Shown here piece by piece: positions 784-64,000 of a stretch of DNA of 64,000 nt. The notes beneath the pieces are model-generated. The model was given only the letters and a program-made list of their open reading frames with translations. It was not told the origin of the DNA and did not search any database. Made by a program: the position numbers and the translations under genes. Numbering within the stretch: the first letter of the stretch is position 1; each line of letters starts with the position of its first letter. This DNA is from Eledone cirrhosa (lineage: Eukaryota), in contig OZ024746.1 of NCBI GenBank assembly GCA_964016885.1, positions 682,001 to 746,000 of the forward strand. Direction: 5' to 3'.

Positions 784-1535
784 TTATCCTTTTCATGAGC
801 ACATTTCTAATGAAATACATTCTATTTCAATTAATTAATGAAGAATTTTAAGGGTTTTACTAAAATTATTAATTATTTCACTACTAACATAGTAACTTAA
901 TGTAAGGTTCTTATATAAAATTATGTTGGAAGATTTTAATTTAAATTGGAAACCTTTAAAATGGGAGGTTTTATTTCATAGAACCAGAGCTGGTTTTGGC
1001 TGGGTTGGTAACTAAAGGGTTAAAATAGGAGGTTTTATTTCATAGAACCAGAGCTGGTTTTGGTCAGCTTGGTAACTAAAGGGTTAAAATGGTTGGTTTT
1101 ATTTCATAGAACCAGAGCTGGTTTTGGTCAGCTTGGTAACTAAAGGGTTAAAATGGTTGGTTTTATTTCATAGAACCAGAGCTGGTTTTGGCTGGGTTGG
1201 TAACTAAAGGGTTAAAATAGGAGGTTTTATTTCATAGAACCAGAGCTGGTTTTGGTCAGCTTGGTAACTAAAGGGTTAAAATGGTTGGTTTTATTTCATA
1301 GAACCAGAGCTGGTTTTGGTCAGCTTGGTAACTAAAGGGTTAAAATGGTTGGTTTTATTTCATAGAACCAGAGCTGGTTTTGGCTGGGTTGGTAACTAAA
1401 GGGTTAAAATGGTTGGTTTTATTTCATAGAACCAGAGCTGGTTTTGGTCAGCTTGGTAACTAAAGGGTTAAAATGGTTGGTTTTATTTCATAGAACCAGA
1501 GCTAGTTTTGGCTGGGTTGGTAACTAAAGAGTTAA
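784..1535 (+). mobile_element. piggyBac-like MITE with its right terminus amplified as ~9 x 64-bp tandem units
   Basis: Decayed left end (ttatccttttcatg...atttctaatgaaatac), AT-rich body, then 64-bp units ending TGGTAACTAAAGGG-TTAA. The reverse complement TTAA-CCCTTTAGTTACCA matches the left-end TTAA-CCCTTTCATTACCA seen in other copies. Confidence 0.75.
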
Positions 1536-1550
1536 AAAATCCCCAATGTT

Positions 1551-4304: not shown

Positions 4305-4388
4305 ACTCCACCTCCACCAACAACCACCACCACCACCGCCACCGCCGCCGCCGCCGCCACCACCACCACCACCACCAGTAGCAGCAGC
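4305..4388. repeat. (CCA)n/(CCG)n/(GCA)n microsatellite
   Basis: Direct inspection. No flanking splice or ORF support. Confidence 0.8.
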
Positions 4389-5048
4389 TCTGGTTCTATG
4401 AAATAAAACCACCTCTTTTAACCCTTTAGTTACCAACCTGACTAAAACCAGCTCTGGTTCTATGAAATAAAACCTCCCATTTTAACCCTTTAGTTATCAA
4501 CACCACCACCACCAGCTCTGGTTCTATGAAATAAAACCACCCATTTTAACCCTTTAGTTACCAACCCATCCCAAACCAGCCCTGGTTCTATGAAATAAAA
4601 TCTCCCATTTTAACCCTTTAGTTACCAACCTGGCCAAAACCAGCTCTGGTTCTATGAAATAAAACCTCCCATTTTAACCCTTTAGTTACCAACCTAGCCA
4701 GAACCAGCTCTGGTTCTATGAAATAAAACCTCCCATTTAACCCTTTAGTTACCAACCCAGTCAAAACCAGCTCTGGTTCTATGAAATAAAACCTCCCATT
4801 TAACCCTTTAGTTACCAACCCAGCCAAAACCAGCTCTGGTTCTATGAAATAAAACCTCCCATTTTAAAGGTTTTATAATTTAAATTAAAATCTTCCAACA
4901 TAATTTTATATAAGAACCTCACATTAAGTTACTACCTTAGTAATGAAATAATTAATAAATTTAGTAAATCCCTCAAAATTAGTAATTAATTAATTAAAAT
5001 AGAGTGATGATGATGATGTATTTCCTTAGGTGGTGATGAAAGGGTTAA
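4386..5048 (-). mobile_element. piggyBac-like MITE, inverted relative to 784-1535, right terminus amplified ~7.5 x 63-64 bp
   Basis: Reverse complement of 784-1535, including the unique body (aaattaaaatcttccaacataattttatataagaacc). Ends tggtgatgaaaggg-ttaa at 5031-5048. Confidence 0.8.
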
Positions 5049-34942: not shown

Positions 34943-37900
34943 AACAGGGAGTACATACACTGGAAGTTATGCCAACACTACAAAATACTAACAGGGAGTA
35001 CATACACTGGAAGTTATGCCAACACTACAAAATATTAACAGGGAGTACATACACTGGAAGTTATGCCAACACTACAAAATACTAACAGGGAGTACATACA
35101 CTGGAAGTTATGCCAACACTACAAAATATTAACAGGGAGTACGTACACTGGAGGTTATGCCAATACTACAAAATACTAACATACATACACTGGAAGTTAT
35201 ACCAACACTACAAAATACTAACATACACACACTGGAAGTTATGCCAACACTACAAAATACTAACAGGGAATACATACACTGGAAGTTATACAAACACTAC
35301 AAAACACTAACAGGGAATACATACACTGGAAGTTATACCAACACTACAAAATACTAACATACAGACACTGGAAGTTATACCAACACTACAAAATACTAAC
35401 ATACAGACACTGGAAGTTATGCCAACACTACAAAATACTAACATACAGACACTGGAAGTTATGCTAACACTACAAAACACTAACAGAGAATACATACACT
35501 GGAAGTTATACCAACACTACAAAATACTAACATACATACACTGAAAGTTATGCCAACACTACAAAACACTAACAGGGAATACATACACTGAAAGTTATAC
35601 CAACACTACAAAATACTAACAGGGAATACATACACTGGAAGTTATACCAACACTACAAAATACTAACAGGGAGTACATACACTGGAAGTTATACCAACAC
35701 AACAAAATACTAACATACATACACTGGAAGTTATGCCAACACTACAAAATACTAACATACATACACTGGAAGTTATGCCAACACTACAAAATACTAACAT
35801 ACATACACTGGAAGTTATGCCAACAATACAAAACACTAACAGGGAGTACATACACTGGAAGTTATGCCAACACTACAAAATACTAACATACATACACTGG
35901 AAGTTATGCCAACACTACAAAATACTAACATACATACACTGGAAGTTATGCCAACACTACAAAATACTAACATACAGACACTGGAAGTTATGCCAACACT
36001 ACAAAATACTAACAGGGAGTACATACACTGGAAGTTATGCCAACACTACAAAATACTAACATACATACACTGGAAGTTATACCAACACTACAAAATACTA
36101 ACATACATACACTGGAAGTTATGCCAACACTACAAAATACTAACAGGGAGTACATACACTGGAAGTTATGCCAACACTACAAAATACTAACAGGGAATAC
36201 ATACACTGAAAGTTATGCCAACACTACAAAGTACTAACATACATACACTGGAAGTTATGCCAACACTACAAAATACTAACAGGGAGTACATACACTGGAA
36301 GTTATGCCAACACTACAAAACACAAACATACATACACTGGAAGTTATGCCAACACTACAAAATACTAACATACACACACTGGAAGTTATGCCAACACTAC
36401 AAAATACTAACAGGGAGTACATACACTGGAAGTTATGCCAACACTACAAAATACTAACATACATACACTGGAAGTTATGCCAACACTACAAAATACTAAC
36501 AGGGAGTACATACACTGGAAGTTATGCCAACACTACAAAATACTAACAGGGAGTACATACACTGGAAGTTATGCCAACACTACAAAATACTAACATACAT
36601 ACACTGGAAGTTATGCCAACACTACAAAATACTAACATACATACACTGGAAGTTATGCCAACACTACAAAATACTAACATACATACACTGGAAGTTATGC
36701 CAACACTACAAAATACTAACAGGGAGTACATACACTGGAAGTTATGCCAACACTACAAAATACTAACAGGGAGTACATACACTGGAAGTTATGCCAACAC
36801 TACAAAATACTAACATACATACACTGGAAGTTATGCCAACACTACAAAATACTAACATACATACACTGGAAGTTATGCCAACACTACAAAATACTAACAG
36901 GGAGTACATACACTGGAAGTTATGCCAACACTACAAAATACTAACATACATACACTGGAAGTTATGCCAACACTACAAAATACTAACATACAGACACTGG
37001 AAGTTATGCCAACACTCCAAAATACTAACATAGATACACTGGAAGTTATGCCAACACTACAAAATACTAACATACATACACTGGAAGTTATACCAACACT
37101 ACAAAATACTAACATACACACACTGGAAGTTATGCCAACACTACAAAATACTAACAGGGAATACATACACTGGAAGTTATACCAACACTACAAAACACTA
37201 ACAGGGAATACATACACTGGAAGTTATACCAACACTACAAAATACTAACATACAGACACTGGAAGTTATACCAACACTACAAAATACTAACATACAGACA
37301 CTGGAAGTTATGCCAACACTACAAAATACTAACATATAGACACTGGAAGTTATGCTAACACTACAAAACACTAACAGAGAATACATACACTGGAAGTTAT
37401 ACCAACACTACAAAATACTAACATACATACACTGAAAGTTATGCCAACACTACAAAATACTAACATACATACACTGGAAGTTATGCCAACACTACAAAAC
37501 ACTAACAGGGAATACATACACTGAAAGTTATACCAACACTACAAAATACTAACAGGGAATACATACACTGGAAGTTATACCAACACTACAAAATACTAAC
37601 AGGGAGTACATACACTGGAAGTTATACCAACACTACAAAATACTAACATACATACACTGGAAGTTATGCCAACACTACAAAATACTAACATACATACACT
37701 GGAAGTTATGCCAACACTACAAAATTCTAACATACATACACTGGAAGTTATGCCAACACTACAAAACACTAACAGGGAGTACATACACTGGAAGTTATGC
37801 CAACACTACAAAATACTAACATACATACACTGGAAGTTATGCCAACACTACAAAATACTAACATACATACACTGGAAGTTATGCCAACACTACAAAATAC

Positions 37901-40900
37901 TAACATACAGATACTGGAAGTTATGCCAACACTACAAAATACTAACAGGGAGTACATACACTGGAAGTTATGCCAACACTACAAAATACTAACATACATA
38001 CACTGGAAGTTATACCAACACTACAAAATACTAACATACATACACTGGAAGTTATGCCAACACTACAAAATACTAACAGGGAGTACATACACTGGAAGTT
38101 ATGCCAACACTACAAAATACTAACAGGGAATACATACACTGAAAGTTATGCCAACACTACAAAATACTAACATACATACACTGGAAGTTATGCCAACACT
38201 ACAAAACACAAACATACATACACTGGAAGTTATGCCAACACTACAAAATACTAACATACACACACTGGAAGTTATGCCAACACTACAAAATACTAACAGG
38301 GAGTACATACACTGGAAGTTATGCCAACACTACAAAATACTAACATACATACACTGGAAGTTATGCCAACACTACAAAATACTAACATACATACACTGGA
38401 AGTTATGCCAACACTACAAAACACTAACAGGGAGTACATACACTGGAAGTTATGCCAACACTACAAAATACTAACAGGGAGTACATACACTGGAAGTTAT
38501 GCCAACACTACAAAATACTAACATACACACACTGGAAGTTATGCCAACACTACAAAATACTAACAGGGAGTACATACACTGGAAGTTATGCCAACACTAC
38601 AAAATACTAACATACATACACTGGAAGTTATGCCAACACTACAAAATACTAACAGGGAGTACATACACTGGAAGTTATGCCAACACTACAAAATACTAAC
38701 ATACATACACTGGAAGTTATGCCAACACTACAAAATACTAACATACATACACTGGAAGTTATGCCAACACTACAAAACACTAACAGGGAGTACATACACT
38801 GGAAGTTATGCCAACACTACAAAATACTAACATACATACACTGGAAGTTATGCCAACACTACAAAATACTAACATACATACACTGGAAGTTATGCCAACA
38901 CTACAAAATACTAACATACAGACACTGGAAGTTATGCCAACACTACAAAATACTAACATACATACACTGGAAGTTATACCAACACTACAAAATACTAACA
39001 TACAGACACTGGAAGTTATGCCAACACTACAAAATACTAACAGGGAGTACATACACTGGAAGTTATGCCAACACTACAAAATAATAACATACATACACTG
39101 GAAGTTATGCCAACACTACAAAATACTAACATACATACACTGGAAGTTATGCCAACACTACAAAATACTAACAGGGAGTACATACACTGGAAGTTATGCC
39201 AACACTACAAAATACTAACAGGGAATACATACACTGAAAGTTATGCCAACACTACAAAATACTAACAGGGAATACATACACTGGAAGTTATGCCAACACT
39301 ACAAAATACTAACATACATACACTGGAAGTTATGCCAACACTACAAAATACTAACAGGGAATACATACACTGGAAGTTATGCCAACACTACAAAATACTA
39401 ACAGGGAATACATACACTGGAAGTTATGCCAACACTACAAAATACTAACAGGGAATACATACACTGGAAGTTATGCCAACACTACAAAATACTAACAGGG
39501 AATACATACACTGGAAGTTATGCCAACACTACAAAATACTAACAGGGAATACATACACTGGAAGTTATACCAACACTACAAAATACTAACAGGGAATACA
39601 TACACTGGAAGTTATGCCAACACTACAAAATACTAACAGGGAATACATACACTGGAAGTTATGCCAACACTACAAAATACTAACAGGGAATACATACACT
39701 GGAAGTTATGCCAACACTACAAAATACTAACAGGGAATACATACACTGGAAGTTATACCAACACTACAAAATACTAACAGGGAATACATACACTGGAAGT
39801 TATGCCAACACTACAAAATACTAACAGCAAATACATACACTGGAAGTTATGCCAACACTACAAAATACTAACAGGGAATACATACACTGGAAGTTATACC
39901 AACGCTACAAAATACTAACAGGGAATACATACACTGGAAGTTATGCCAACGCTACAAAATACTAACAGGGAATACATACACTGGAAGTTATGCCAACACT
40001 ACAAAATACTAACAGGGAATACATACACTGGAAGTTATGCCAACACTACAAAATACTAACAGGGAATACATACACTGGAAGTTATACCAACACTACAAAA
40101 TACTAAAAGGGAATACATACACTGGAAGTTATGCCAACACTACAAAATACTAACAGCAAATACATACACTGGAAGTTATGCCAGCACTACAAAATACTAA
40201 CAGGGAATACATACACTGGAAGTTATACCAACACTACAAAATACTAACAGGGAATACATACACTGGAAGTTATACCAACACTACAAAATACTAACAGCGA
40301 ATACATACACTGGAAGTTATGCCAACACTACAAAATACTAACAGGGAATACATACACTGGAAGTTATGCCAACACTACAAAATACTAACAGGGAATACAT
40401 ACACTGGAAGTTATGCCAACACTACAAAATACTAACAGGGAATATATACACTGGAAGTTATGCCAACACTACAAAATACTAACAGCGAATACATACACTG
40501 GAAGTTATGCCAACACTACAAAATACTAACAGGGAATACATACACTGGAAGTTATGCCAACACTAGAAAATACTAACAGGGAATACATACACTGGAAGTT
40601 ATGCCAACACTACAAAATACTAACAGGGAATACATACACTGGAAGTTATACCAACACTACAAAATACTAACAGCGAATACATACACTGGAAGTTATACCA
40701 ACACTACAAAATACTAACAGCGAATACATACACTGGAAGTTATGCCAACACTACAAAATACTAACAGGGAATACATACACTGGAAGATATGCCAACACTA
40801 CAAAATACTAACAGGGAATACATACACTGGAAGTTATGCCAACACTACAAAATACTAACAGGGAATACATACACTGGAAGTTATACCAACACTACAAAAT

Positions 40901-42083
40901 ACTAACAGGGAATACATACACTGGAAGTTATACCAACACTACAAAATACTAACAGGGAGTACATACACTGGAAGTTATACCAACACTACAAAATACTAAC
41001 AGGGAATACATACACTGGAAGTTATGCCAACACTACAAAATACTAACAGGGAATACATACACTGGAAGTTATACCAACACTACAAAATACTAACAGGGAG
41101 TACATACACTGGAAGTTATACCAACACTACAAAATACTAACAGGGAGTACATACACTGGAAGTTATACCAACACTACAAAATACTAACAGGGAATACATA
41201 CACTGGAAGTTATGCCAACACTACAAAATACTAACAGGGAATACATACACTGAAAGTTATACCAACACTACAAAATACTAACAGGGAGTACATACACTGG
41301 AAGTTATACCAACACTACAAAATACTAACAGGGAGTACATACACTGGAAGTTATACCAACACTACAAAATACTAACAGGGAATACATACACTGGAAGTTA
41401 TGCCAACACTACAAAATACTAACAGGGAGTACATACACTGGAAGTTATACCAACACTACAAAATACTAACAGGGAGTACATACACTGGAAGTTATACCAA
41501 CACTACAAAATACTAACAGGGAGTACATACACTGGAAGTTATACCAACACTACAAAATACTAACAGGGAGTACATACACTGGAAGTTATACCAACACTAC
41601 AAAATACTAACAGGGAATACATACACTGGAAGTTATGCCAACACTACAAAATACTAACAGGGAGTACATACACTGGAAGTTATACCAACACTACAAAATA
41701 CTAACAGGGAGTACATACACTGGAAGTTATACCAACACTACAAAATACTAACAGCGAATACATACACTGGAAGTTATGCCAACACTACAAAATACTAACA
41801 GGGAGTACATACACTGGAAGTTATACCAACACTACAAAATACTAACAGGGAGTACATACACTGGAAGTTATACCAACACTACAAAATACTAAAAGGGAGT
41901 ACATACACTGGAAGTTATACCAACACTACAAAATACTAACAGGGAGTACATACACTGGAAGTTATACCAACACTACAAAATACTAACAGGGAGTACATAC
42001 ACTGGAAGTTATACCAACACTACAAAATACTAACAGCGAATACATACACTGGAAGTTATGCCAACACTACAAAATACTAACAG
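34943..42083. repeat. Satellite 2: 47-bp unit (aacagggagtacatacactggaagttatgccaacactacaaaatact) mixed with a 42-bp deletion variant, ~7.1 kb
   Basis: Direct inspection. The unit translates as YIHWKLCQHYKILT, the retrotransposon segment following RHD. Confidence 0.97.
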
Positions 42084-45159: not shown

Positions 45160-45572
45160 TTAACCCCCTTACCATATTTCTAATGAAACACACTGCTCAT
45201 AATTTACTTATTATTAAGTTGCCATTTAGAGCATAACAAAGCCCTTATATAAAATTATGATGAAAGGTCTTTAAATAAATATAAACATGTTAACCCTCTC
45301 CTTACCAAATTTCATATTATTAAGCTGGTGTTTGGAGCATAACATAACAAAGGTTCTTTCATAAAGTTATGATGGAAGGTTTTTAGATAAATATAATTAA
45401 CCTTTTCATTACCATATTTCTAATGAAACAGACTGCCTATAATTTTCAATTAATTTTGAAAATCCCAAAGAATTTTAGAGATATTTAGTAATAATATAAC
45501 TAACCTTTTCAACATTAAGCTGGTGTTTGGAGCGTAACTTAAGAAAGGGCAAGTTGGTTTCAAAAGGGTTCA
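45160..45572 (+). mobile_element. Three decayed head-to-tail restarts of the piggyBac-like MITE left end
   Basis: TTAA-CC...TTACCA.ATTTC restarts at 45160, 45290 and 45397, each followed by MITE body sequence. Confidence 0.65.
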
Positions 45573-47615: not shown

Positions 47616-47655
<40 letters not shown>

Positions 47656-47843
47656 AGATAAATCTACCAAAATATACGGTAATGTCCAATCCGTATGAAG
47701 AACTCAATGTAATCCAAATATCATGAAAAGAGAAGATGTATTCAAAAATTTTTTCGATGAAAATCACAGGAAAACAGAGTCAAGATAAATTAATAAAAAT
47801 AACGAATAAAAACAAAGAAACAGTTCCTTATATTAAAAAATTC

Positions 47844-47976
47844 ATCATTTTACAATCGTTTCTAGGATATATATGTGTGTGTTGGTATGTATATCCTATA
47901 GATCTATGTAAAAATTTTACAAATATCAGAGGGAATATACATACCTACACATATATATGCTGTCTTCAGAAATAAT
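47844..47976 (-). ncRNA. Predicted type I hammerhead ribozyme (inverted arm copy)
   Basis: Same fold on the minus strand: attattt CUGAAGA ... GAAAC gatt GUA aaatgat. Confidence 0.7.
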
Positions 47977-48552
47977 TGTTTCTACTTTAGGCACAAGGCC
48001 AGCAATTACCCAGAAATAATGATATTTGTTTATTGAAAAAAACCAACAAAGATTTAATATAATAGGTCCGTTTGGGAACAGGCTTTGAATTGACCTATAG
48101 AAAAGTAGTAAGTGGTCAAGTTGATAGAATAGTAGTAGTAGAAATTTAATTTAGGGGTAGAGGAATGCAGACTTCAGTTTTGAATGGAAAGAATATTTTG
48201 AATGAAAAGATTACTTTGGGGATGAAAAGAGGTCAAGCTGGTGAAAGGTACACGAAAATTTGATGTTATTAAAGAATAATGCTAATGTTAAAATCGAAGG
48301 AGAATAAAATTTTACGATAAATGTGTTAGTGAGAAATACCAATCTTATTTAAAACATAAAGAATTTAGATCTATAAAAAAAAAATTAAATTAATTTAATT
48401 GATAGGTATACTTATAGGGATAAATTTATATTAATTCATATAGATATGATAAATAAGAGTTAGATGTTATTAAAGAATGTTGTTAAAAACAAAGGAAAAA
48501 AATTTGGGGGGGGGGGGGGGATAAATGTATTAGTGAGAAATAACAAACTTAT

Positions 48553-48879
48553 TCATATATAGGAACTACTTCTAACCAATTTAAAGTAAGATTTAATACC
48601 CACAAACACAGTTTTAAAAATGCCGCATTAGCTAATACAACATCCTTGGCTGAAATAATTAATAATTATAGAAAAAAGAATATCGATTATAACCTGACCT
48701 GGAGTGTGCTCAAAAGGGCCACCCCTTATCAAAATGACAGATATGAGTGTAGATTATGTTCCCAGGAACTTTTTTAAATAATGAAATCTAAGGATATCCT
48801 ACTAAATAAGCGACAAGAATTAATTATATCGTGCAATCATAGAATTAGAAAAACTTTCAAATATTATAAACCTAATTAA
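48553..48879 (+). pseudogene. Penelope-type GIY-YIG endonuclease C-terminal fragment
   Basis: SYIGTTSNQFKVRFNTHKHSFKN...TSLAEII...LTWSVLKRATPY...CRLCSQELF*IMK...LLNKRQELIISCNHR carries YIG, FKxRxxxHxxSF, CxLC and LLNKRxEL..C.H motifs of PLE endonucleases. One in-frame stop at 48775-48777. Confidence 0.85.
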
Positions 48880-49614
48880 TATACACTTATATTTTACAAA
48901 TTATTATAATTATTTTTTTAAAATTTAGTTAACCTATAATTAGTATTTTATTACTGAGAACTGCATAATTTTATTTCCCTTTTACAGCTATCTTTTCCTA
49001 AAATTAATACCAATAAGTATACATATAAACTATTTTAATTTCCTGTTATGAATCTTAATTCCTTGTAATCTATATAAGTTTGTTATTTCTCACTAATACA
49101 TTTATCCCCCAAAAAAATGTTTTCCTTTGTTTTTAACAACATTCTTTAATAACATCTAACTCTTATTTATCATATCTATATGAATTAATATAAATTTATC
49201 CCTATAAGTATACCTATCAATTAAATTAATTTAATTTCTTTTTATAGATCTAAATTCCTTATGTTTTTAATAAGATTGGTATTTCTCACTAACACATTTA
49301 TCGTAAAATTTTATTCTCCTTCGATTTTAACATTAGCATTATTCTTTAATAACATCAAATTTTCGTGTACCTTTCACCAGCTTGACCTCTTTTCATCCCC
49401 AAAGTAATCTTTTCATTCAAAATATTCTTTCCATTCAAAACTGAAGTCTGCATTCCTCTACCCCTAAATTAAATTTCTACTACTACTTTTCTATTGGTCA
49501 ATTCAAAACCTGTTCCCAAACGGACCTATTATATTAAATCTTTGTTGGTTTTTTTCAATAAACAAATATCATTATTTCTGGGTAATTACTGGCCTTGTGC
49601 CTAAAGTAGAAACA

Positions 49615-49747
49615 ATTATTTCTGAAGACAGCATATATATGTGTAGGTATGTATATTCCCTCTGATATTTGTAAAATTTTTACATAGATCTATAGGATAT
49701 ACATACCAACACACACATATATATCCTAGAAACAATCGTAAAATGAT
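49615..49747 (+). ncRNA. Predicted type I hammerhead ribozyme (PLE pseudo-LTR, sense copy)
   Basis: Stem I attattt/aaatgat, core CUGAAGA (49622-49628), ~100-nt self-complementary stem II region, GAAAC (49729-49733), 4-nt loop, GUA cleavage triplet (49738-49740). Confidence 0.7.
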
Positions 49748-50139
49748 GAACTTTTTAATATAAGGAACTGTTTATTTGTTTTAATTCATTATTTTTATTA
49801 ATTTATATATATATATATTAATTTATTAAAATAACAGATTAAAGTTTAAGCTAGGAATCGCTGCTTTTACCCTTAACGGGATCTTCTGAAACTATTATTA
49901 TTATATATTATATATATATATATATATATCTTGCCTCTGTTTTCCTGGGATTTTCATCGAATATTTTTGAATGCATCTTCTCTTTTCATGATATTTGGAT
50001 TACATTGAGTTCTTCATACGGATTGGACACTACCGTATATTTTGGTAGATTTATCTACATATATATATATATATATAGGGAGAGAGAGAGAAAGAGAGGG
50101 AGAGATATTCATTGATACTATAATATATACCGCTCCTTA

Positions 50140-51450: not shown

Positions 51451-54400
51451 TTAACCCTTTCATTACCATATTTCTAATGAAAGACACTGTGTATGTCATT
51501 AACCCTTTCATTACCATATTTCTAATGAAAGACACTGTCTATGTCATTAACCCTTTCATTACCATATTTCTAATGAAAGACACTGTCTATGTCATTAACC
51601 CTTTAATTACCATATTTCTAATGAAAGACACTGCCTATGTCATTAACCCTTTCATTTCCATATATCTAATGAAAGACACTGTCTATGTCATTAACCCTTT
51701 CATTACCATATTTCTAATGAAAGACAGTCTATGTCATTAAACCTTTCATTACCATATTTCTAATGAAATACACTGTCTATGTCTTTAACCCTTTCATTAC
51801 CATATTTCTAATGAAAGACACTGTCTATGTCATTAACCCTTTCATTACCATCTTTCTAATGAAAGACACTGTCTATGTCATTAACCCTTTCATTACCATA
51901 TTTCTAATGAAAGACACTGTCTATGTCATTAACCCTTTCATTACCATATTTCTAATGAAAGACAGTCTATATCATTAAACCTTTCATTACCATATTTCTA
52001 ATGAAAGACACTGTCTATGTCATTAACCCTTTCATTACCATATTTCTAATGAAAGACACTGTCTATGTCATTAACCCTTTCATTACCATATATCTAATGA
52101 AAGACACTGTCTATGTCATTAACCCTTTCATTACCATATTTCTAATGAAAACAGTCTATATCATTAACCCTTTCATTACCATATTTCTAATGAAAGACAC
52201 TGTCTATGTCATTAACCCTTTCATTACCATATTTCTAATGAAAGACACTGTCTATGTCATTAACCCTTTAATTACCATATTTCTAATGAAAGACACTGCC
52301 TATGTCATTAACCCTTTCATTACCATATATCTAATGAAAGACACTGCCTATGTCATTAACCCTTTCATTACCATATTTCTAATGAAAGACAGTCTATATC
52401 ATTAAACCTTTCATTACCATATTTCTAATGAAAGACAGTCTATGTCATTAAACCTTTCATTACCATATTTCTAATGAAATACACTGTCTATGTCTTTAAC
52501 CCTTTCATTACCATATTTCTAATGAAAGACACTGTCTATGTCATTAACCCTTTCATTACCATATTTCTAATGAAAGACACTGTCTATGTCTTTAACCCTT
52601 TTATTACCATATTTCTAATGAAAGACACTGTCTATGTCATTAACCCTTTCATTACCATATTTCTAATGAAAGACACTGTCTATGTCATTAACCCTTTCAT
52701 TACCATATTTCTAATGAAAGACACTGTCTATGTCATTAACCCTTTAATTACCATATTTCTAATGAAAGACACTGCCTATGTCATTAACCCTTTCATTACC
52801 ATATTTCTAATGAAAGACAGTCTATGTCATTAAACCTTTCATTACCATATTTCGAATGAAATACACTGTCTATGTCTTTAACCCTTTCATTACCATATTT
52901 CTAATGAAAGACACTGTCTATGTCATTAACCCTTTCATTACCATATTTCTAATGAAAGACACTGTCTATGTCATTAACCCTTTCATTACCATATTTCTAA
53001 TGAAAGACACTGTCTATGTCATTAACCCTTTCATTACCATATTTCTAATGAAAGACAGTCTATATCATTAAACCTTTCATTACCATATTTCTAATGAAAG
53101 ACACTGTCTATGTCATTAACCCTTTCATTACCATATTTCTAATGAAAGACACTGTCTATGTCATTAACCCTTTCATTACCATATTTCTAATGAAAGACAC
53201 TGTCTATGTCATTAACCCTTTCATTACCATATTTCTAATGAAAGACACTGTCTATGTCATTAACCCTTTCATTACCATATTTCTAATGAAAGACACTGTC
53301 TATGTCATTAACCCTTTCATTACCATATTTCTAATGAAAGACACTGTCTATGTCATTAACCCTTTCATTACCATGTTTCTAATGAAAGACACTATGTCTT
53401 TAACCCTTTCATTGCCATATTTCTAATGAAAGACAGACTATGTCATTAACCCTTTCATCACCATATTTCTAATGAAAGACACTGTCTATGTCATTAACCC
53501 TTTCATTACCGTATTTTTAAGGAAATACACTGTCTATGTCTTTAATCCTTTCATTACCATATTTCTAATGAAAGACAGTCTATGTCATTAAACCTTTCAT
53601 TACCATGTTTCTAATGAAAGACACTATGTCTTTAACCCTTTCATTGCCATATTTCTAATGAAAGACAGTCTATGTCATTAACCCTTTCATCACCATATTT
53701 CTAATGAAAGACACTGTCTATGTCATTAACCCTTTCATTACCGTATTTCTAAGGAAATACACTGTCTATGTCTTTAACCCTTTCATTACCATATTTCTAA
53801 TGAAAGACAGTCTATGTCATTAAACCTTTCATTACCATATTTCTAATGAAAGACAGTCTATGTCATTAAACCTTTCATTACCATATTTCTAATGAAAGAC
53901 ACTATCTATATCATTAACCCTTTCATTACCATATTTCTAATGAAAGACACTGTCTATGTCATTAACCCTTTCATTACCATATTTCTAATGAAAGACACTG
54001 TCTATGTCATTAACCCTTTCATTACCATATTTCTAATGAAAGACACTGTCTATGTCATTAACCCTTTCATTACCATGTTTCTAATGAAAGACACTATGTC
54101 TTTAACCCTTTCATTGCCATATTTCTAATGAAAGACAGTCTATGTCATTAACCCTTTCATCACCATATTTCTAATGAAAGACACTGTCTATGTCATTAAC
54201 CCTTTCATTACCGTATTTTTAAGGAAATACACTGTCTATGTCTTTAATCCTTTCATTACCATGTTTCTAATGAAAGACAGTCTATGTCATTAAACCTTTC
54301 ATTACCATGTTTCTAATGAAAGACACTATGTCATTAACCCTTTCATCACCATATTTCTAATGAAAGACACTGTCTATGTCATTAACACTTTCATTAAGAT

Positions 54401-57400
54401 GTTTCTAATGAAAGACACTGTCTATGTCATTAACCCTTTCATTACCATATTTCTAATGAAAGACACTATGTGTATAAACCTTTCATTACCATATTTCTAA
54501 TGAAAGACAGTCTATGTCATTAACCCTTTCATTACCATATTTCTAATGAAAGACACTGTCTATGTCTTTAACCCTTTTATTACCATATTTCTAATGAAAG
54601 ACACTGCCTATGTCATTAACCCTTTCATTACCATATTTCTAATGAAAGACACTGCCTATGTCATTAACCCTTTCATTACCATATTTCTAATGAAAGACAC
54701 TGTCTATGTCTTTAACCCTTTTATTACCATATTTCTAATGAAAGACACTGTCTATGTCATTAACCCTTTCATTACCATATTTCTAATGAAAGACACTATG
54801 TCATTAGCCCTTGCATTACCATATTTCTAATGAAAGACAGTCTATGACATTAAACCTTTCATTACCATATTTCTAATGAAAGACAGTCTATGTCATTAAA
54901 CCTTTCATTACCATGTTTCTAATGAAAGACACTGTCTATGTCATTAGCCCTTTCATTACCATATTTCTAATGAAAGACACTGTCTATGTCATTAACCCTT
55001 TCATTACCATATTTCTAATGAAATACACTGTCTATGTCTTTAATCCTTTCATTACCATATTTCTAATGAAAGACACTATGTCTTTAACCCTTTCATTACC
55101 ATATTTCTAATGAAAGACAGTCTATGTCATTAAACCTTTCATTACCATATTTCTAATGAAAGACACTATCTATATCATTAACCCTTTCATTACCATATTT
55201 CCAATGAAAGACACTGTCTATGTCTTTAACCCTTTCAATACCATATTTCTAATGAAAGACACTGTCTATGTCATTAACCCTTTCATTAAGATGTTTCTAA
55301 TGAAAGACACTGTCTATGTCATTAACCCTTTCATTACCATATTTCTAATGAAAGACACTATGTGTATAAACCTTTCATTACCATATTTCTAATGAAAGAC
55401 AGTCTATGTCATTAACCCTTTCATTACCATATTTCTAATGAAAGACACTGTCTATGTCATTAGCCCTTTCATTACCATATTTCTAATGAAAGACACTGTC
55501 TATGTCATTAGCCCTTTCAATACCACATTTCTAATGAAAGACACTGTCTATGTCATTAATCCTTTCATTACCATATTTCTAATGAAAGACACTGTCTATG
55601 TCTTTAACCCTTTTATTACCATATTTCTAATGAAAGATACTATGTCATTAACTTTTTCATTACCATATTTCTAATGAAAGACAGTCTATGTCATTAAACC
55701 TTTCATTACCATATTTCTAATGAAAGACAGTCTATGTCATTAAACCTTTCATTACCATGTTTCTAATGAAAGACACTGTCTATGTCATTAGCCCTTTCAT
55801 TACCATATTTCTAATGAAAGACACTGTCTATGTCATTAACCCTTTCATTACCATATTTCTAATGAAAGACACTGTCTATGTCTTTAATCCTTTCATTACC
55901 ATATTTCTAATGAAAGACACTCTCTATGTCATTAATCCTTTCATTACCATATTTCTAATGAAAGACACTGTCTATGTCTTTAACCCTTTTATTACTATAT
56001 TTCTAATGAAAGACACTGCCTATGTCATTAGCCCTTTCATTACCATATTTCTAATGAAAGACACTATGTCATTAACCCTTTCTTTACCATATTTCTAATG
56101 AAAGACAGTCTATGTCATTAAACCTTTCATTACCATGTTTCTAATGAAAGACACTGTCTATGTCATTAACCCTTTCATTAAGATGTTTCTAATGAAAGAC
56201 ACTGTCTATGTCATTAACCCTTTCATTACCATATTTCTAATGAAAGACACTATGTGTATAAACCTTTCATTACCATATTTCTAATGAAAGACAGTCTATG
56301 TCATTAACCCTTTCATTACCATATTTCTAATGAAAGACACTGTCTATGTCTTTAACCCTTTTATTACCATATTTCTAATGAAAGACACTGCCTATGTCAT
56401 TAACCCTTTCATTACCATATTTCTAATGAAAGACACTGCCTATGTCATTAACCCTTTCATTACCATATTTCTAATGAAAGACACTGTCTATGTCTTTAAC
56501 CCTTTTATTACCATATTTCTAATGAAAGACACTGTCTATGTCATTAACCCTTTCATTACCATATTTCTAATGAAAGACACTATGTCATTAGCCCTTGCAT
56601 TACCATATTTCTAATGAAAGACAGTCTATGACATTAAACCTTTCATTACCATATTTCTAATGAAAGACAGTCTATGTCATTAAACCTTTCATTACCATGT
56701 TTCTAATGAAAGACACTGTCTATGTCATTAGCCCTTTCATTACCATATTTCTAATGAAAGACACTGTCTATGTCATTAACCCTTTCATTACCATATTTCT
56801 AATGAAATACACTGTCTATGTCTTTAATCCTTTCATTACCATATTTCTAATGAAAGACACTATGTCTTTAACCCTTTCATTACCATATTTCTAATGAAAG
56901 ACACTATCTATATCATTAACCCTTTCATTACCATATTTCTAATGAAAGACACTGTCTATGTCATTAACTGTTTCATTACCATATTTCTAATGAAAGACAC
57001 TGTCTATGTCATTAACCCTTTCATTAACATATTTCTAATGAAAGACACTATGTGTATAAACCTTTCATTACCATATTTCTAATGAAAGACAGTCTATGTC
57101 TTTAACCCTTTTATTACCATATTTCTAATGAAAGACACTGCCTATGTCATTAACCCTTTCATTACCATATTTCTAATGAAAGACACTGCCTATGTCATTA
57201 GCCCTTTCATTCCCATATTTCTAATGAAAGACACTATGTCATTAACTTTTTCATTACCATATTTCTAATGAAAGACAGTCTATGTCATTAAACATTTCAT
57301 TACCATATTTCTAATGAAAGACAGTCTATGTCATTAAACCTTTCATTAAGATGTTTCTAATGAAAGACACTGTCTATGTCATTAGCCCTTTCATTACCAT

Positions 57401-60400
57401 ATTTCTAATGAAAGACACTGTCTATGTCATAAACCCTTTCATTACCATAGTTCTAATGAAAGACACTGTCTATGTCATTAGCCCTTTCATTACCATATTT
57501 CTAATGAAAGACACTGTCTATGTCTTTAATCCTTTCATTACCATATTTCTAATGAAAGACACTGTCTATGTCATTAATCCTTTCATTACCATATTTCTAA
57601 TGAAAGACACTGTCTATGTTTTTAACCTTTTTATTACTATATTTCTAATGAAAGACACTGCCTATATCATTAGCCCTTTCATTACCATATTTCTAATGAA
57701 AGACACTATGTCATTAACCCTTTCTTTACCATATTTCTAATGAAAGACAGTCTATGTCATTAAACCTTTCATTACCATGTTTCTAATGAAAGACACTGTC
57801 TATGTCATTAACCCTTTCATTAAGATGTTTCTAATGAAAGACACTGTCTATGTCATTAACCCTTTCATTACCATATTTCTAATGAAAGACACTATGTGTA
57901 TAAACCTTTCATTACCATATTTCTAATGAAAGACAGTCTATGTCATTAACCCTTTCATTACCATATTTCTAATGAAAGACACTGTCTATGTCTTTAACCC
58001 TTTTATTACCATATTTCTAATGAAAGACACTGCCTATGTCATTAACCCTTTCATTACCATATTTCTAATGAAAGACACTGCCTATGTCATTAACCCTTTC
58101 ATTACCATATTTCTAATGAAAGACACTGTCTATGTCTTTAACCCTTTTATTACCATATTTCTAATGAAAGACACTGTCTATGTCATTAACCCTTTCATTA
58201 CCATATTTCTAATGAAAGACACTATGTCATTAGCCCTTGCATTACCATATTTCTAATGAAAGACAGTCTATGACATTAAACCTTTCATTACCATATTTCT
58301 AATGAAAGATAGTCTATGTCATTAAACCTTTCATTACCATGTTTCTAATGAAAGACACTGTCTATGTCATTAGCCCTTTCATTACCATATTTCTAATGAA
58401 AGACACTGTCTATGTCATTAACCCTTTCATTACCATATTTCTAATGAAATACACTGTCTATGTCTTTAATCCTTTCATTACCATATTTCTAATGAAAGAC
58501 ACTATGTCTTTAACCCTTTCATTACCATATTTCTAATGAAAGACAGTCTATGTCATTAAACCTTTCATTACCATATTTCTACTGAAAGACACTATCTATA
58601 TCATTAACCCTTTCATTACCATATTTCCAATGAAAGACACTGTCTATGTCTTTAACCCTTTCAATACCATATTTCTAATGAAAGACACTGTCTATGTCAT
58701 TAACCCTTTCATTACCATATTTCTAATGAAAGACACTGTCTATGTCTTTAACCCTTTTATTACCATATTTCTAATGAAAGACACTGTCTATGTCATTAGC
58801 CCTTTCATTACCATATTTCTAATGAAAGACACTGTCTATGTCATTAGCCCTTTCAATACCATATTTCTAATGAAAGACACTGTCTATGTCATTAACCCTT
58901 TCAATACCATATTTCTAATGAAAGACACTGTCTATGTCTTTAACCCTTTTATTACCATATTTCTAATGAAAGACACTGTCTATGTCATTAGCCCTTTCAT
59001 TATCATATTTCTAATGAAAGACACTATGTCATTAACCCTTTCATTACCATATTTCTAATGAAAGACACTGCCTATGTAATTAACCCTTTCATCACCATAT
59101 TTCTAATGAAAGACACTGTCTATGTCATTAACCCTTTCATTAACATATTTCTAATGAAAGACACTATGTGTATAAACCTTTCATTACCATATTTCTAATG
59201 AAAGACAGTCTATGTCTTTAACCCTTTTATTACCATATTTCTAATGAAAGACACTGCCTATGTCATTAACCCTTTCATTACCATATTTCTAATGAAAGAC
59301 ACTGCCTATGTCATTAGCCCTTTCATTCCCATATTTCTAATGAAAGACACTATGTCATTAACTTTTTCATTACCATATTTCTAATGAAAGACAGTCTATG
59401 TCATTAAACATTTCATTACCATATTTCTAATGAAAGACAGTCTATGTCATTAAACCTTTCATTAAGATGTTTCTAATGAAAGACACTGTCTATGTCATTA
59501 GCCCTTTCATTACCATATTTCTAATGAAAGACACTGTCTATGTCATAAACCCTTTCATTACCATATTTCTAATGAAAGACACTGTCTATGTTATTAGCCC
59601 TTTCATTACCATATTTCTAATGAAAGACACTGTCTATGTCTTTAATCCTTTCATTACCATATTTCTAATGAAAGACACTGTCTATGTCATTAATCCTTTC
59701 ATTACCATATTTCTAATGAAAGACACTGTCTATGTTTTTAACCCTTTTATTACTATATTTCTAATGAAAGACACTGCCTATATCATTAGCCCTTTCATTA
59801 CCATATTTCTAATGAAAGACACTATGTCATTAACCCTTTCTTTACCATATTTCTAATGAAAGACAGTCTATGTCATTAAACCTTTCATTACCATGTTTCT
59901 AATGAAAGACACTATGTCTTTAACCCTTTCATTACCATATTTCCAATGAAAGACACTGTCTATGTCTTTAACCCTTTCATTACCATATTTCTAATGAAAG
60001 ACACTACCTATGTCATTAACCTTTGCATTACCTTATTTCTAATGAAAGACACTGCCTATGTCATTAACCCTTTCATCACCATATTTCTACTGAAAGACAC
60101 TGTCTATGTCTTTAAATCTTTCATTACCATATTTCTAATGAAAGACACTGTCTATGTCATTAGCCCTTTCATTACCATATTTCTAATGAAAGACACTGTC
60201 TATGTCATTAACCCTTTCATTACCATATTTCTAATGAAAGACACTGTCTATGTCATAAACCCTTTCATTACCATATTTCTAATGAAAGACAGTCTATGTG
60301 TATAAACCTTTCATTACCATATTTCTAATGAAAGACACTGTCTATGTCTTTAACCCTTTTATTACCATATTTCTAATGAAAGACACTGTCTATGTCATTA

Positions 60401-63400
60401 ACCCTTTCATTACCATATTTCTAATGAAAGACACTATGTCATTAGCCCTTGCATTACCATATTTCTAATGAAAGACAGTCTATGATATTAAACCTTTCAT
60501 TACCATATTTCTAATGAAAGACAGTCTATGTCATTAAACCTTTCATTACCATGTTTCTAATGAAAGACACTGTCTATGTCATTAGCCCTTTCATTACCAT
60601 ATTTCTAATGAAAGACACTGTCTATGTCATTAACCCTTTCATTACCATATTTCTAATGAAATACACTGTCTATGTCTTTAACCCTTTCATTACCATATTT
60701 CTAATGAAAGACAGTCTATGTCATTAAACCTTTCATTACCATATTTCTAATGAAAGACACTATCTATATTATTTTTATATTTTGTTATTGCCTCCTCCTT
60801 ATTGAGGACGCCTTTTTGTGTAAACTCCCCCCTTTGTACTTGTCCCACTTTTGATGCCCCAGTGGCAAATAAAAGAAATATATCTATATCATTAACCCTT
60901 TCATTACCATATTTCCAATGAAAGACACTGTCTATGTCTTTAACCCTTTCAATACCATATTTCTAATGAAAGACACTGTCTATGTCATTAACCCTTTCAT
61001 TACCATATTTCTAATGAAAGACACTGTCTATGTCTTTAACCCTTTTATTACCATATTTCTAATGAAAGACACTGTCTATGTCATTAGCCCTTTCATTACC
61101 ATATTTCTAATGAAAGACACTGTCTATGTCATTAGCCCTTTCAATACCATATTTCTAATGAAAGACACTGTCTATGTCATTAACCCTTTAAATACCATAT
61201 TTCTAATGAAAGACACTGTCTATGTCATTAGCCCTTTCATTATCATATTTCTAATGAAAGACACTATGTCATTAACCCTTTCATTACCATATTTCTAATG
61301 AAAGACACTGCCTATGTAATTAACCCTTTCATCACCATATTTCTAATGAAAGACACTGTCTATGTCATTAACTGTTTCATTACCATATTTCTAATGAAAG
61401 ACACTGTCTATGTCATTAACCCTTTCATTAACATATTTCTAATGAAAGACACTATGTGTATAAACCTTTCATTACCATATTTCTAATGAAAGACACTGCC
61501 TATGTAATTAACCCTTTCATCACCATATTTCTAATGAAAGACACTGTCTATGTCATTAACTGTTTCATTACCATATTTCTAATGAAAGACACTGTCTATG
61601 TCATTAACCCTTTCATTAACATATTTCTAATGAAAGACACTATGTGTATAAACCTTTCATTACCATATTTCTAATGAAAGACAGTCTATGTCTTTAACCC
61701 TTTTATTACCATATTTCTAATGAAAGACACTGCCTATGTCATTAACCCTTTCATTACCATATTTCTAATGAAAGACACTGCCTATGTCATTAGCCCTTTC
61801 ATTCCCATATTTCTAATGAAAGACACTATGTCATTAACTTTTTCATTACCATATTTCTAATGAAAGACAGTCTATGTCATTAAACATTTCATTACCATAT
61901 TTCTAATGAAAGACAGTCTATGTCATTAAACCTTTCATTAAGATGTTTCTAATGAAAGACACTGTCTATGTCATTAGCCCTTTCATTACCATATTTCTAA
62001 TGAAAGACACTGTCTATGTCATAAACCCTTTCATTACCATATTTCTAATGAAAGACACTGTCTATGTCATTAGCCCTTTCATTACCATATTTCTAATGAA
62101 AGACACTGTCTATGTCTTTAATCCTTTCATTACCATATTTCTAATGAAAGACACTGTCTATGTCATTAATCCTTTCATTACCATATTTCTAATGAAAGAC
62201 ACTGTCTATGTTTTTAACCCTTTTATTACTATATTTCTAATGAAAGACACTGCCTATATCATTAGCCCTTTCATTACCATATTTCTAATGAAAGACACTA
62301 TGTCATTAACCCTTTCTTTACCATATTTCTAATGAAAGACAGTCTATGTCATTAAACCTTTCATTACCATGTTTCTAATGAAAGACACTATGTCTTTAAC
62401 CCTTTCATTACCATATTTCCAATGAAAGACACTGTCTATGTCTTTAACCCTTTCATTACCATATTTCTAATGAAAGACACTACCTATGTCATTAACCTTT
62501 GCATTACCTTATTTCTAATGAAAGACACTGCCTATGTCATTAACCCTTTCATCACCATATTTCTACTGAAAGACACTGTCTATGTCTTTAAATCTTTCAT
62601 TACCATATTTCTAATGAAAGACACTGTCTATGTCATTAGCCCTTTCATTACCATATTTCTAATGAAAGACACTGTCTATGTCATTAACCCTTTCATTACC
62701 ATATTTCTAATGAAAGACACTGTCTATGTCATAAACCCTTTCATTACCATATTTCTAATGAAAGACAGTCTATGTGTATAAACCTTTCATTACCATATTT
62801 CTAATGAAAGACACTGTCTATGTCTTTAACCCTTTTATTACCATATTTCTAATGAAAGACACTGTCTATGTCATTAACCCTTTCATTACCATATTTCTAA
62901 TGAAAGACACTATGTCATTAGCCCTTGCATTACCATATTTCTAATGAAAGACAGTCTATGATATTAAACCTTTCATTACCATATTTCTAATGAAAGACAG
63001 TCTATGTCATTAAACCTTTCATTACCATGTTTCTAATGAAAGACACTGTCTATGTCATTAGCCCTTTCATTACCATATTTCTAATGAAAGACACTCTCTA
63101 TGTCATTAACCCTTTCATTACCATATTTCTAATGAAATACACTGTCTATATCTTTAACCCTTTCATTACCATATTTCTAATGAAAGACAGTCTATGTCAT
63201 TAAACCTTTCATTACCATATTTCTAATGAAAGACACTATCTATATCATTAACCCTTTCATTACCATATTTCCAATGAAAGACACTGTCTATGTCTTTAAC
63301 CCTTTCAATACCATATTTCTAATGAAAGACACTGTCTATGTCATTAACCCTTTCATTACCATATTTCTAATGAAAGACACTGTCTATGTCTTTAACCCTT

Positions 63401-64000
63401 TTATTACCATATTTCTAATGAAAGACACTGTCTATGTCATTAGCCCTTTCATTACCATATTTCTAATGAAAGACACTGTCTATGTCATTAGCCCTTTCAA
63501 TACCATATTTCTAATGAAAGACACTGTCTATGTCATTAACCCTTTAAATACCATATTTCTAATGAAAGACACTGTCTATGTCTTTAACCCTTTTATTACC
63601 ATATTTCTAATGAAAGACACTGTCTATGTCATTAGCCCTTTCATTATCATATTTCTAATGAAAGACACTATGTCATTAACCCTTTCATTACCATATTTCT
63701 AATGAAAGACACTGCCTATGTAATTAACCCTTTCATCACCATATTTCTAATGAAAGACACTGTCTATGTCATTAACTGTTTCATTACCATATTTCTAATG
63801 AAAGACACTGTCTATGTCATTAACCCTTTCATTAACATATTTCTAATGAAAGACACTATGTGTATAAACCTTTCATTACCATATTTCTAATGAAAGACAC
63901 TGCCTATGTAATTAACCCTTTCATCACCATATTTCTAATGAAAGACACTGTCTATGTCATTAACTGTTTCATTACCATATTTCTAATGAAAGACACTGTC
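51451..64000. repeat. Satellite 3: 48-bp unit (ttaaccctttcattaccatatttctaatgaaagacactgtctatgtca) with 46- and 44-bp variants, >12.5 kb, runs off the window
   Basis: Direct inspection. The unit equals the left terminus of the piggyBac-like MITE (compare 45397-45440 and the reverse complement of 5015-5048). Confidence 0.97.
60770..60880 (+). mobile_element. 111-bp retroposed insert within satellite 3
   Basis: Unique sequence flanked by a direct repeat tatctatat (60761-60769 and 60881-60889), with AATAAA and an A-rich end at its 3' side. Confidence 0.75.

What the first reader, a model, noticed from the sequence alone, without database searches (positions are those of the whole stretch)
51451..64000. 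Satellite made of hundreds of tandem transposon ends (TTAA + TIR) of a piggyBac-like MITE
Seen: most 48-bp units begin TTAA-CCCTTTCATTACCATATTTCTAATGAAA, the same left end as dispersed MITE copies (45397; reverse complement at 5015-5048; decayed at 784). The opposite end of the same MITE (TGGTAACTAAAGGG-TTAA) is independently amplified as 64-bp arrays at 961-1535 and 4386-4864. Known: TTAA target sites with CCC-initiated TIRs are piggyBac hallmarks. Inference: this family's termini recurrently seed tandem arrays, giving dense clusters of potential transposase or domesticated-PGBD binding/cleavage sites. They could act as decoys, as fragile sites, or as products of end-directed break repair.
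Basis: partly seen in the sequence, partly recalled or inferred. Interest (0 to 1): 0.75.

Follow-up and report, generated by a model that had tools for sequence, protein, structure and literature searches.

The report
Satellite born from piggyBac transposon end
This 22-kb block is 476 tandem copies of one end of an old piggyBac mini-transposon plus its TTAA site, and the same 48-base unit sits on many copies of that transposon across the genome, so it likely arose once, when one copy jumped into another, and likely grew later by ordinary unequal recombination, with no sign that it serves as a transposase decoy.

Summary
The array has 476 units of 44-48 bp (22.5 kb) and ends in a decayed MITE body. 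Each unit is TTAA, 41 terminal bases of an old piggyBac MITE (subfamily S2), and TCA. An autonomous piggyBac with the same 14-bp TIR exists in the genome; this end is its 3' end. The family's TTAA duplications and empty sites are confirmed.

The arrays are not separately seeded: 12 of 13 chosen without regard to the junction share one junction (21,182 exact hits genome-wide). Copies often insert into one another's internal TTAA (6 of 59), which makes doubled ends and is the likely seed. The shortest arrays are as old as solo copies. Long arrays look younger than the bodies they sit on, so exchange between arrays, or copying onto old ends, is likely. TTAA+TIR is not preferentially conserved and no intact cognate transposase was seen, so decoy or fragile-site roles are unsupported. 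The 64-bp arrays belong to a younger sister subfamily.

This is a clean new variant of transposon-derived satellite DNA. The scan noted the same satellite earlier on other DNA of this genome.

The parts
51451..64000 (+). 48-bp satellite array (48/46/44-bp variants); unit = TTAA + terminal 41 bp of MITE subfamily S2 (3' end of the piggyBac, with the 14-bp TIR) + TCA. Continues to about window-equivalent 73995 and ends in a decayed S2 body
   Evidence: 476 units, 264 in the window; 56 consecutive units repeat identically at a lag of 72 units
60766..60885 (+). About 120-bp unrelated insertion in one unit, with an A-rich end and a short TATCTATAT-like repeat on both sides; likely a truncated retroelement
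   Evidence: 91.5% match over 118 bp in L256; 75-84% partial matches in 4 random loci
784..1023 (+). Full-length S1 MITE (240 bp), decayed TTAA at its start; a reversed fragment of another family copy lies directly upstream (about 740-783)
956..1537 (+). 64-bp array of that MITE's other (5') end; unit runs from the internal TTAA at S1 position 173 to the terminal TTAA
4385..5048 (-). Second S1 MITE in opposite orientation with its own 64-bp array (4385-4867); body 92.8% identical to the first over 208 bp, different flanks
45160..45572 (+). Three S2-type pieces head to tail (starts at about 45160, 45290, 45397), each following piece starting at the TTAA site of the previous one; only the last has its far end

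Best explanation
The array is a satellite whose 48-bp unit is the TTAA plus the 3' end of an old piggyBac MITE; the unit likely arose once, when one copy inserted into the internal TTAA of another, likely travelled to many sites as part of the MITE while the family was mobile, and likely grew in place by unequal exchange. Steps: (1) shown: the unit is the MITE end, the family is piggyBac, and arrays across chromosomes share one junction. (2) Shown at other loci, inferred for this unit: same-orientation insertion into an internal TTAA leaves a short end-piece in front of a complete end, and that piece can then be duplicated locally (L231). (3) Inferred: such doubled-end composites were mobilised by their outer end, giving short arrays as old as solo copies. 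(4) Shown: recent multi-kb block duplication inside this array; inferred: unequal crossing-over or gap repair drives growth. (5) Inferred: long arrays stay close to one sequence because they exchange with each other, or because mutated units are copied less often. No transposase is needed after step 3.
For: Autonomous family B (8 loci, about 2.6 kb, PF13843) has TIR CCCTTTCGTTACCA; its 3' end continues like the unit and has a TTAA at position 53 preceded by TTTCAA. Of 13 arrays not chosen by the junction (12 from the 32-mer search plus this one), 12 end their units in CTATG+TC(A/T); the 13th carries a 49-bp variant that also forms large arrays on C2. That junction followed by MITE body has 0 hits. 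6 of 59 copies chosen by a body marker have a same-strand family piece ending at or near an internal TTAA directly upstream, against about 1% expected (p=3e-5); where both pieces are of one subfamily they share few mutations, so they are separate copies. In L231 the two 113-bp host pieces share 7 of 8-10 mutations with each other and 0-1 with the inserted copy. L230 has a doubled end, TTAA at both outer ends and no host remainder. Arrays of 2-5 units differ from the master by 9.5% (16 loci), solo copies by 8.6% (27 copies) at the same unselected positions. Lag-72 identity is 17.9% against a median of 1.4%, with 56 identical units in a row. The junction is abundant in one other organism's run and nearly absent from three runs rich in the MITE end.
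Against: The unit's last bases match the ancestral sequence before the internal TTAA only with two small deletions, and no copy with that exact inner sequence was found, so the founding insertion is not shown; flank capture by microhomology would also fit. Long arrays are closer to the master (3.9-4.5%, 23 stretches, not all independent) than their own bodies (12% from consensus, 20% pairwise) and than solo ends; rho = -0.50, p=3e-4, n=47. Neutral local growth from old composites does not predict this, so step 5 is needed. In 7 of 10 short or medium loci chosen for the TG form of the TIR CpG site, the body-joined unit is TG; in five of the seven other units are CA. L103 and L236 carry S2-type units on bodies with the older internal-TTAA variant. 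Some short arrays have no MITE body at all (L100, L311, L376). All of these fit copying of units onto existing ends. Array-bearing bodies show no shared diagnostic change against solo copies (best p=0.03 of 61 tests).
Confidence: 0.55

Rival explanations
1. Recolonisation: the satellite arose once, but its units are copied from existing arrays onto old solo MITE ends by homology-directed or microhomology-mediated repair, using the 45 bp the unit shares with the end. Not exclusive of the best explanation; it would replace steps 3 and 5.
For: Master-like long arrays on old independent bodies; CA units outside a TG body-joined unit; S2-type units on older-type bodies (L103, L236); body-less fragments, including the C2-type 49-bp variant on C1 (L100); a few young-looking short arrays (L304, L376, L347).
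Against: The shortest arrays are on average as old as solo copies. No S1 body carries the units: 0 of 19 stretches read from the 40 hits of a junction+S1-type-end pattern, all of them S2 arrays with a point change or with no body in view; S1 ends match the unit less well, so this test is weak. New insertions into the TTAA of a short array followed by re-mobilisation would also give mixed bodies and a CG/TG inner unit.
Confidence: 0.27
2. Recurrent seeding: transposase breaks at the MITE end generate a new tandem at each locus independently.
For: Independent terminal tandems of other lengths exist at both ends. The 64-bp TTAA-to-TTAA duplication occurs at 19 loci in the first 100 of 273 hits, its bearers do not cluster on a tree (10 changes, shuffled mean 10.7; star-like tree, low power), and units often share the host's private mutations.
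Against: For the 48-bp unit one junction that the parent lacks is shared by 12 of 13 arrays. 0 of 30 body-chosen S2 copies and 0 of 29 body-chosen S1 copies carry the 48- or 64-bp tandem. The region makes arrays from many unrelated sequences.
Confidence: 0.1
3. The array is kept as a decoy or binding platform for a piggyBac transposase or a domesticated PGBD protein, or acts today as a transposase-fragile site.
For: Tens of thousands of near-intact ends; long arrays are unexpectedly close to the master sequence; a young intact piggyBac family A and a 597-aa PF13843 frame with no TIR pair in the fetched flanks (L036) exist in the genome.
Against: In this array positions 1-18 vary 5.5% against 1.0% for 19-32, and only 133 of 474 units keep TTAA plus the consensus 14-bp TIR. 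Over 22 long-array stretches there is no difference (4.6% vs 3.9%, p=0.29). The consensus TIR carries the CpG-decayed CA form, not the autonomous CG. Family A shares 8 of 14 TIR bases and 54% protein identity with family B. All ends face one way and are of one type; for T. ni piggyBac an RE/RE pair excises but does not integrate (PMC7351741, passage).
Confidence: 0.06

Closest known systems
TE dimers from double insertion expanding to satellite (McGurk and Barbash; bioRxiv 10.1101/158386, search listing; mechanism read in review PMC12628747 section 4, part 1 of 2)
   Same: Insertion-site preference puts one copy next to or into another during active transposition, and the tandem then expands.
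   Different: There the unit is a whole element joined at the shared target site; here it is a 48-bp end-piece, likely cut off at an internal TTAA.
Xstir/Xmix of Xenopus (Hikosaka and Kawahara; seen only through review PMC12628747) and miDNA4 (Scalvenzi and Pollet; same review)
   Same: MITE, tandem array and MITE+array composite coexist; arrays of variable length ride on MITE copies.
   Different: Their repeats come from internal MITE sequence; here the unit includes the target-site TTAA and the tip of the TIR. Xmix as a T2/Kolobok-type element is recalled and from an unchecked note, not tested.
Tetris TIR-220 satellite of Drosophila virilis (PMC4079207, abstract and outline only)
   Same: A non-autonomous DNA transposon's terminal region supplied the monomer of kb-size arrays.
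   Different: TIR-220 are pre-existing internal tandem repeats of long foldback TIRs; here the parent has short TIRs and no tandem repeat, and the monomer has a new junction.
Rsp-like satellite spreading into 1.688 clusters (PMC7403614, abstract and one discussion section)
   Same: Model for the recolonisation rival: a satellite spreads by repair into abundant dispersed homologous sites.
   Different: There the target is another satellite; here it would be the parent transposon's own end. Not shown here.
piggyBac superfamily, T. ni piggyBac (PMC7351741, passages)
   Same: TTAA target duplication, CCC/GGG ends, asymmetric ends, PF13843 transposase in the autonomous partner.
   Different: The element here is a non-coding MITE of an apparently extinct family; the satellite holds only one end type.

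Membership tests
piggyBac non-autonomous element (parent MITE) | TTAA at both ends | tested here: met
   26 of 44 full-length S1 copies keep exact TTAA at both ends; unrelated flanks
piggyBac non-autonomous element (parent MITE) | Empty sites with a single TTAA | tested here: met
   Joined flanks of L026 and L232 align across a single TTAA with uninterrupted copies of other repeats; L016, L029, L213, L221 align across the joint less cleanly; 7 of 44 joins had any spanning hit, one of them an array artefact (L004)
piggyBac non-autonomous element (parent MITE) | TIRs starting CCC and shared with a transposase-coding piggyBac | tested here: met
   8 of 30 PF13843 loci fetched have the 14-bp TIR and both subterminal sequences
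piggyBac non-autonomous element (parent MITE) | Short, non-coding, high copy | tested here: met
   240 and about 263 bp; 2763 candidates for S1; 34 fragments in 600 kb of evenly spaced sample, 0.6% of bases
piggyBac non-autonomous element (parent MITE) | Mobilisation and precise excision by the partner transposase | not testable with these tools
   needs a transposition assay
Satellite/minisatellite DNA | Long head-to-tail arrays at several loci with higher-order duplication | tested here: met
   476 units here; arrays on C1, C2, C3, C4, C8, C15 and others; lag-72 block
Satellite/minisatellite DNA | Heterochromatic or centromeric chromatin | not testable with these tools
   many long arrays lie near contig ends, chromatin unknown
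Double-insertion TE tandems (McGurk and Barbash type) | Unit is the whole element joined at a shared target site | tested here: not met
   unit is 48 of about 263 bp
Double-insertion TE tandems (McGurk and Barbash type) | Seed made by insertion-site preference | tested here: inconclusive
   self-insertion at internal TTAA is common but the founding event of this unit was not found
Xstir/miDNA4-type MITE satellite | MITE + array composites coexist with solo MITEs and long arrays | tested here: met
Xstir/miDNA4-type MITE satellite | Monomer from internal MITE sequence | tested here: not met
   monomer starts at the TTAA and TIR tip
Rsp-like recolonising satellite | Young units inserted into older homologous sites | tested here: inconclusive
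   true of long arrays, not of the shortest on average; no units on S1 ends
Transposase decoy array | Binding/cleavage site conserved above the rest of the unit | tested here: not met
Transposase decoy array | A live cognate protein | tested here: inconclusive
   0 of 8 family-B copies seen have a full-length frame; only 116 of 1116 candidates were scored and 30 loci fetched

The most novel reading that the evidence does not exclude
A satellite made from a transposon's own end keeps spreading without transposase by being copied back onto thousands of dead copies of its parent, which act as landing pads; self-insertion at internal TTAA sites is a general way for piggyBac MITEs to mint such end-satellites.
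Probability: 0.27. Interest if true: 0.68.

Novelty: new variant of a known kind. Interest (0 to 1): 0.42.

Why it matters
How a dispersed transposon turns into satellite DNA is usually inferred from end products. Here the stages coexist in one genome: solo MITE, self-insertion at an internal TTAA, local duplication of the end-piece, short composites, and arrays of tens of kb, with a CpG site and a unique junction as markers and a sister organism that shares the junction. That makes composite dispersal versus recolonisation directly testable. It does not point to a new functional system.

Tried and rejected
DNA search with the satellite itself returned nothing because common words are skipped; uninformative. 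A parent subfamily carrying the junction inside its body: 0 hits. Tree of 36 S1 bodies to test one origin of the 64-bp arrays: star-like, no power. My first reading of L100 as an independent flank capture was dropped when the same 49-bp junction turned up in large C2 arrays. The 120-bp insertion as a trace of exchange with the C1 array locus L256: the match is in the opposite orientation and both end at the same A-rich tail, so two insertions of one retroelement family are likelier. Hairpin selection: two units fold into 8-9-bp stems (z = -3.9), but the left stem is no more conserved than the loop. Enrichment of arrays at family ends: none of 50 minisatellite arrays in 600 kb of evenly spaced sample comes from this MITE apart from two short chance-level hits; 9 other array units of the neighbourhood do not match it. 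No RNA holder listed. Runs X6, X7, X13, X16 held 1-27 contigs each, trace level, and were not counted. Rows dropped: L216 (same locus as L215); L271 from the solo-end average and 3 of 30 solo copies without a findable end; L296 and L310 (no 40-56-bp unit called); units broken by indels. Literature searches for a piggyBac-end satellite or a cephalopod report listed none; only listings were read, the library lacks most subscription papers and Repbase, and no supplements were seen, so absence from print is not shown.
Full report
What is there. The window lies at G000:C6:682001-746000 in a 3.0-Gb genome; its repeats look like an octopod's (recalled, and so labelled in unchecked earlier notes; no call establishes it). 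TRF confirms the 48-bp array from 51451 and the two 64-bp arrays. With neighbouring DNA the array has 476 units (328 of 48 bp, 80 of 46, 65 of 44), spans 22.5 kb, has one 120-bp interruption and ends in a short decayed MITE body. The quoted 32-mer is the consensus; 74 of 264 window units have it exactly. The neighbourhood is full of unrelated arrays, and 9 of their units do not match this family.

The parent element. A 240-bp copy from the window finds 2763 candidates. Two subfamilies emerge: S1 (240 bp, about 6% from consensus) and S2 (about 263 bp, 13%). 26 of 44 full-length S1 copies keep TTAA at both ends, and removing the element restores other repeats across a single TTAA (L026, L232). 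A PF13843 search gave two autonomous families among the 30 loci fetched. Family A (TIR CCCTTTAGCRTTCA) has near-identical copies with intact 561-aa frames. Family B (8 loci, 89-95% alike, none with a full-length frame) has TIR CCCTTTCGTTACCA; its 3' end continues like the satellite unit and its 5' end like the 64-bp arrays. So the MITE is a non-autonomous piggyBac of family B, the unit is S2 positions 1-45 plus TCA, and the 64-bp arrays are on S1.

One junction, many loci. The 32-mer has 20,721 exact matches (control 0). The first 100 fall in 56 loci on C1, 11 of them tandem; 1 of 14 single-hit loci that I read was also an array. Of these 12 arrays plus the window's, none chosen by the junction, 12 end their units in CTATG+TC(A/T); the other has a 49-bp variant that also builds large arrays near the end of C2. 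The junction has 21,182 exact hits; followed by MITE body it has none. 0 of 30 S2 copies chosen by a body marker carry units, so arrays are a rare lineage. If a quarter to a half of units match exactly (116 of 475 do here), the family is roughly 2-4 Mb; this is an estimate. The junction is abundant in one other organism's run (X3) and nearly absent from three runs with thousands of contigs of the MITE end (X8, X10, X11), which show the older form with an internal TTAA; one 49-base contig in X11 crosses it but is too short to count. The satellite is therefore lineage-restricted and younger than the family.

How the seed likely formed. Family members insert into each other's internal TTAA. 6 of 59 body-chosen copies have a same-strand family piece directly upstream, against about 1% expected from the family's 0.6% share of DNA. 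The pieces are mostly separate copies. L102 and L335 keep the host remainder; L230 lacks it and has TTAA at both outer ends. L231 shows the next step: two 113-bp host pieces that share 7 mutations, in front of a different complete copy. The window has such a stack at 45160-45572. The autonomous 3' end and older MITE copies have a TTAA near position 50 preceded by TTTCAA; the unit's end matches this with two small deletions. The 64-bp unit runs exactly from S1's internal TTAA to its terminal TTAA. Self-insertion is thus the best-supported seed, but for the 48-bp unit it is inferred.

How it spread and grew. At positions not used for selection, arrays of 2-5 units differ from the master by 9.5% (16 loci), of 6-9 by 6.3% (8), of 10-20 by 3.9% (9), longer ones by 4.5% (14), and solo copies by 8.6% (27); rho = -0.50, p=3e-4 (several long stretches belong to one C2 cluster). 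The seeds are therefore about as old as the S2 burst, which fits dispersal as a doubled-end composite. Long arrays sit on bodies that are 12% from consensus and 20% apart, yet 19 of 23 have a consensus identical to the master at those positions. Independent neutral growth cannot easily give that, so exchange among arrays, a bias against copying mutated units, or copying onto old ends is needed. For the last: the TG form of the TIR CpG site has only 93 junction hits although solo copies are CA 12, TG 7, CG 3 of 30, and it sits in the body-joined unit in 7 of 10 short or medium loci; two arrays sit on older-type bodies; some have no body. Against it: the shortest arrays are old on average, and no S1 body carries units in 19 stretches read. 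Growth inside this array is recent and block-wise: 56 consecutive units repeat identically 72 units later.

Function. TTAA+TIR varies more than the next 14 bases in this array (5.5% vs 1.0%; 133 of 474 units intact) and equally across 22 long-array stretches (p=0.29). The consensus TIR is the decayed CA form. Family A shares 8 of 14 TIR bases and 54% protein identity with B. A decoy or fragile-site role is not supported, though binding was not tested and an intact B copy is not excluded (116 of 1116 candidates scored).

Comparison. Satellites from TE parts, including terminal inverted repeats, are established (PMC12628747, passages and section 4 part 1). Nearest are double-insertion tandems, Xstir/miDNA4 composites, Tetris TIR-220 (abstract) and, for the rival, Rsp-like spread (abstract and one section). 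What differs is a monomer made of target site plus TIR tip, a likely self-insertion seed, and visible intermediates. Five searches listed no piggyBac-end satellite, a weak negative. Earlier unchecked notes of this scan describe the same satellite elsewhere in this genome; they are not independent support. Verdict: real, new variant of a known kind, interest 0.42.

Noticed in passing
L037-L045, L047, L048, L052, L057, L059, L061 (e.g. G000:C1:205014261-205018313): Young piggyBac family A, about 2575 bp, copies 97-100% alike, several with intact frames of about 560 aa; possibly recently active.
   Followed up: partly
L036 (G000:C2:234415673-234416746): Best PF13843 hit, 597-aa open frame, no close relative among 30 loci and no TIR pair in the fetched flanks; candidate domesticated PGBD gene.
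   Followed up: partly
L035:2878-3747 (just upstream of the window): A third array from the MITE's 5' end, alternating 36/41-bp units without the TTAA; an independent junction. The S1 copy is nested in an S2 copy.
   Followed up: partly
window 60766-60885; L256:2223-2340: Short retroelement-like insertion with a target-site repeat inside the array; a 91.5% relative sits in the MITE body next to a C1 array.
   Followed up: partly
window 47640-48560 and 49080-50060: Large inverted duplication of about 1 kb seen in the raw sequence (near-palindromic block around 48800).
   Followed up: no
window 10104-30909 and 34943-42083; L032:2338-8857: Unrelated long minisatellites (51 bp x about 400, 47 bp x 158, 43 bp x 150); this chromosome end amplifies many sequences.
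   Followed up: partly
L215, L228, L229: S1 copies with the same internal 144-bp duplication at two different insertion sites; either a transposed variant or a recurrent slip. L228 and L229 share flanks.
   Followed up: partly
G000:C2:410.0-413.5 Mb (L299-L302, L314, L315): Cluster of arrays of a 49-bp variant of the same satellite; hits span over 110 kb at 412.08-412.20 Mb.
   Followed up: partly
L098, L345, L334: Arrays with an inverted block of units, i.e. local strand switches inside the arrays.
   Followed up: no
L116, L120, L136, L163: 4 of 60 evenly spaced 10-kb stretches are entirely satellite (27, 79, 26, 35 bp), none from this MITE.
   Followed up: no
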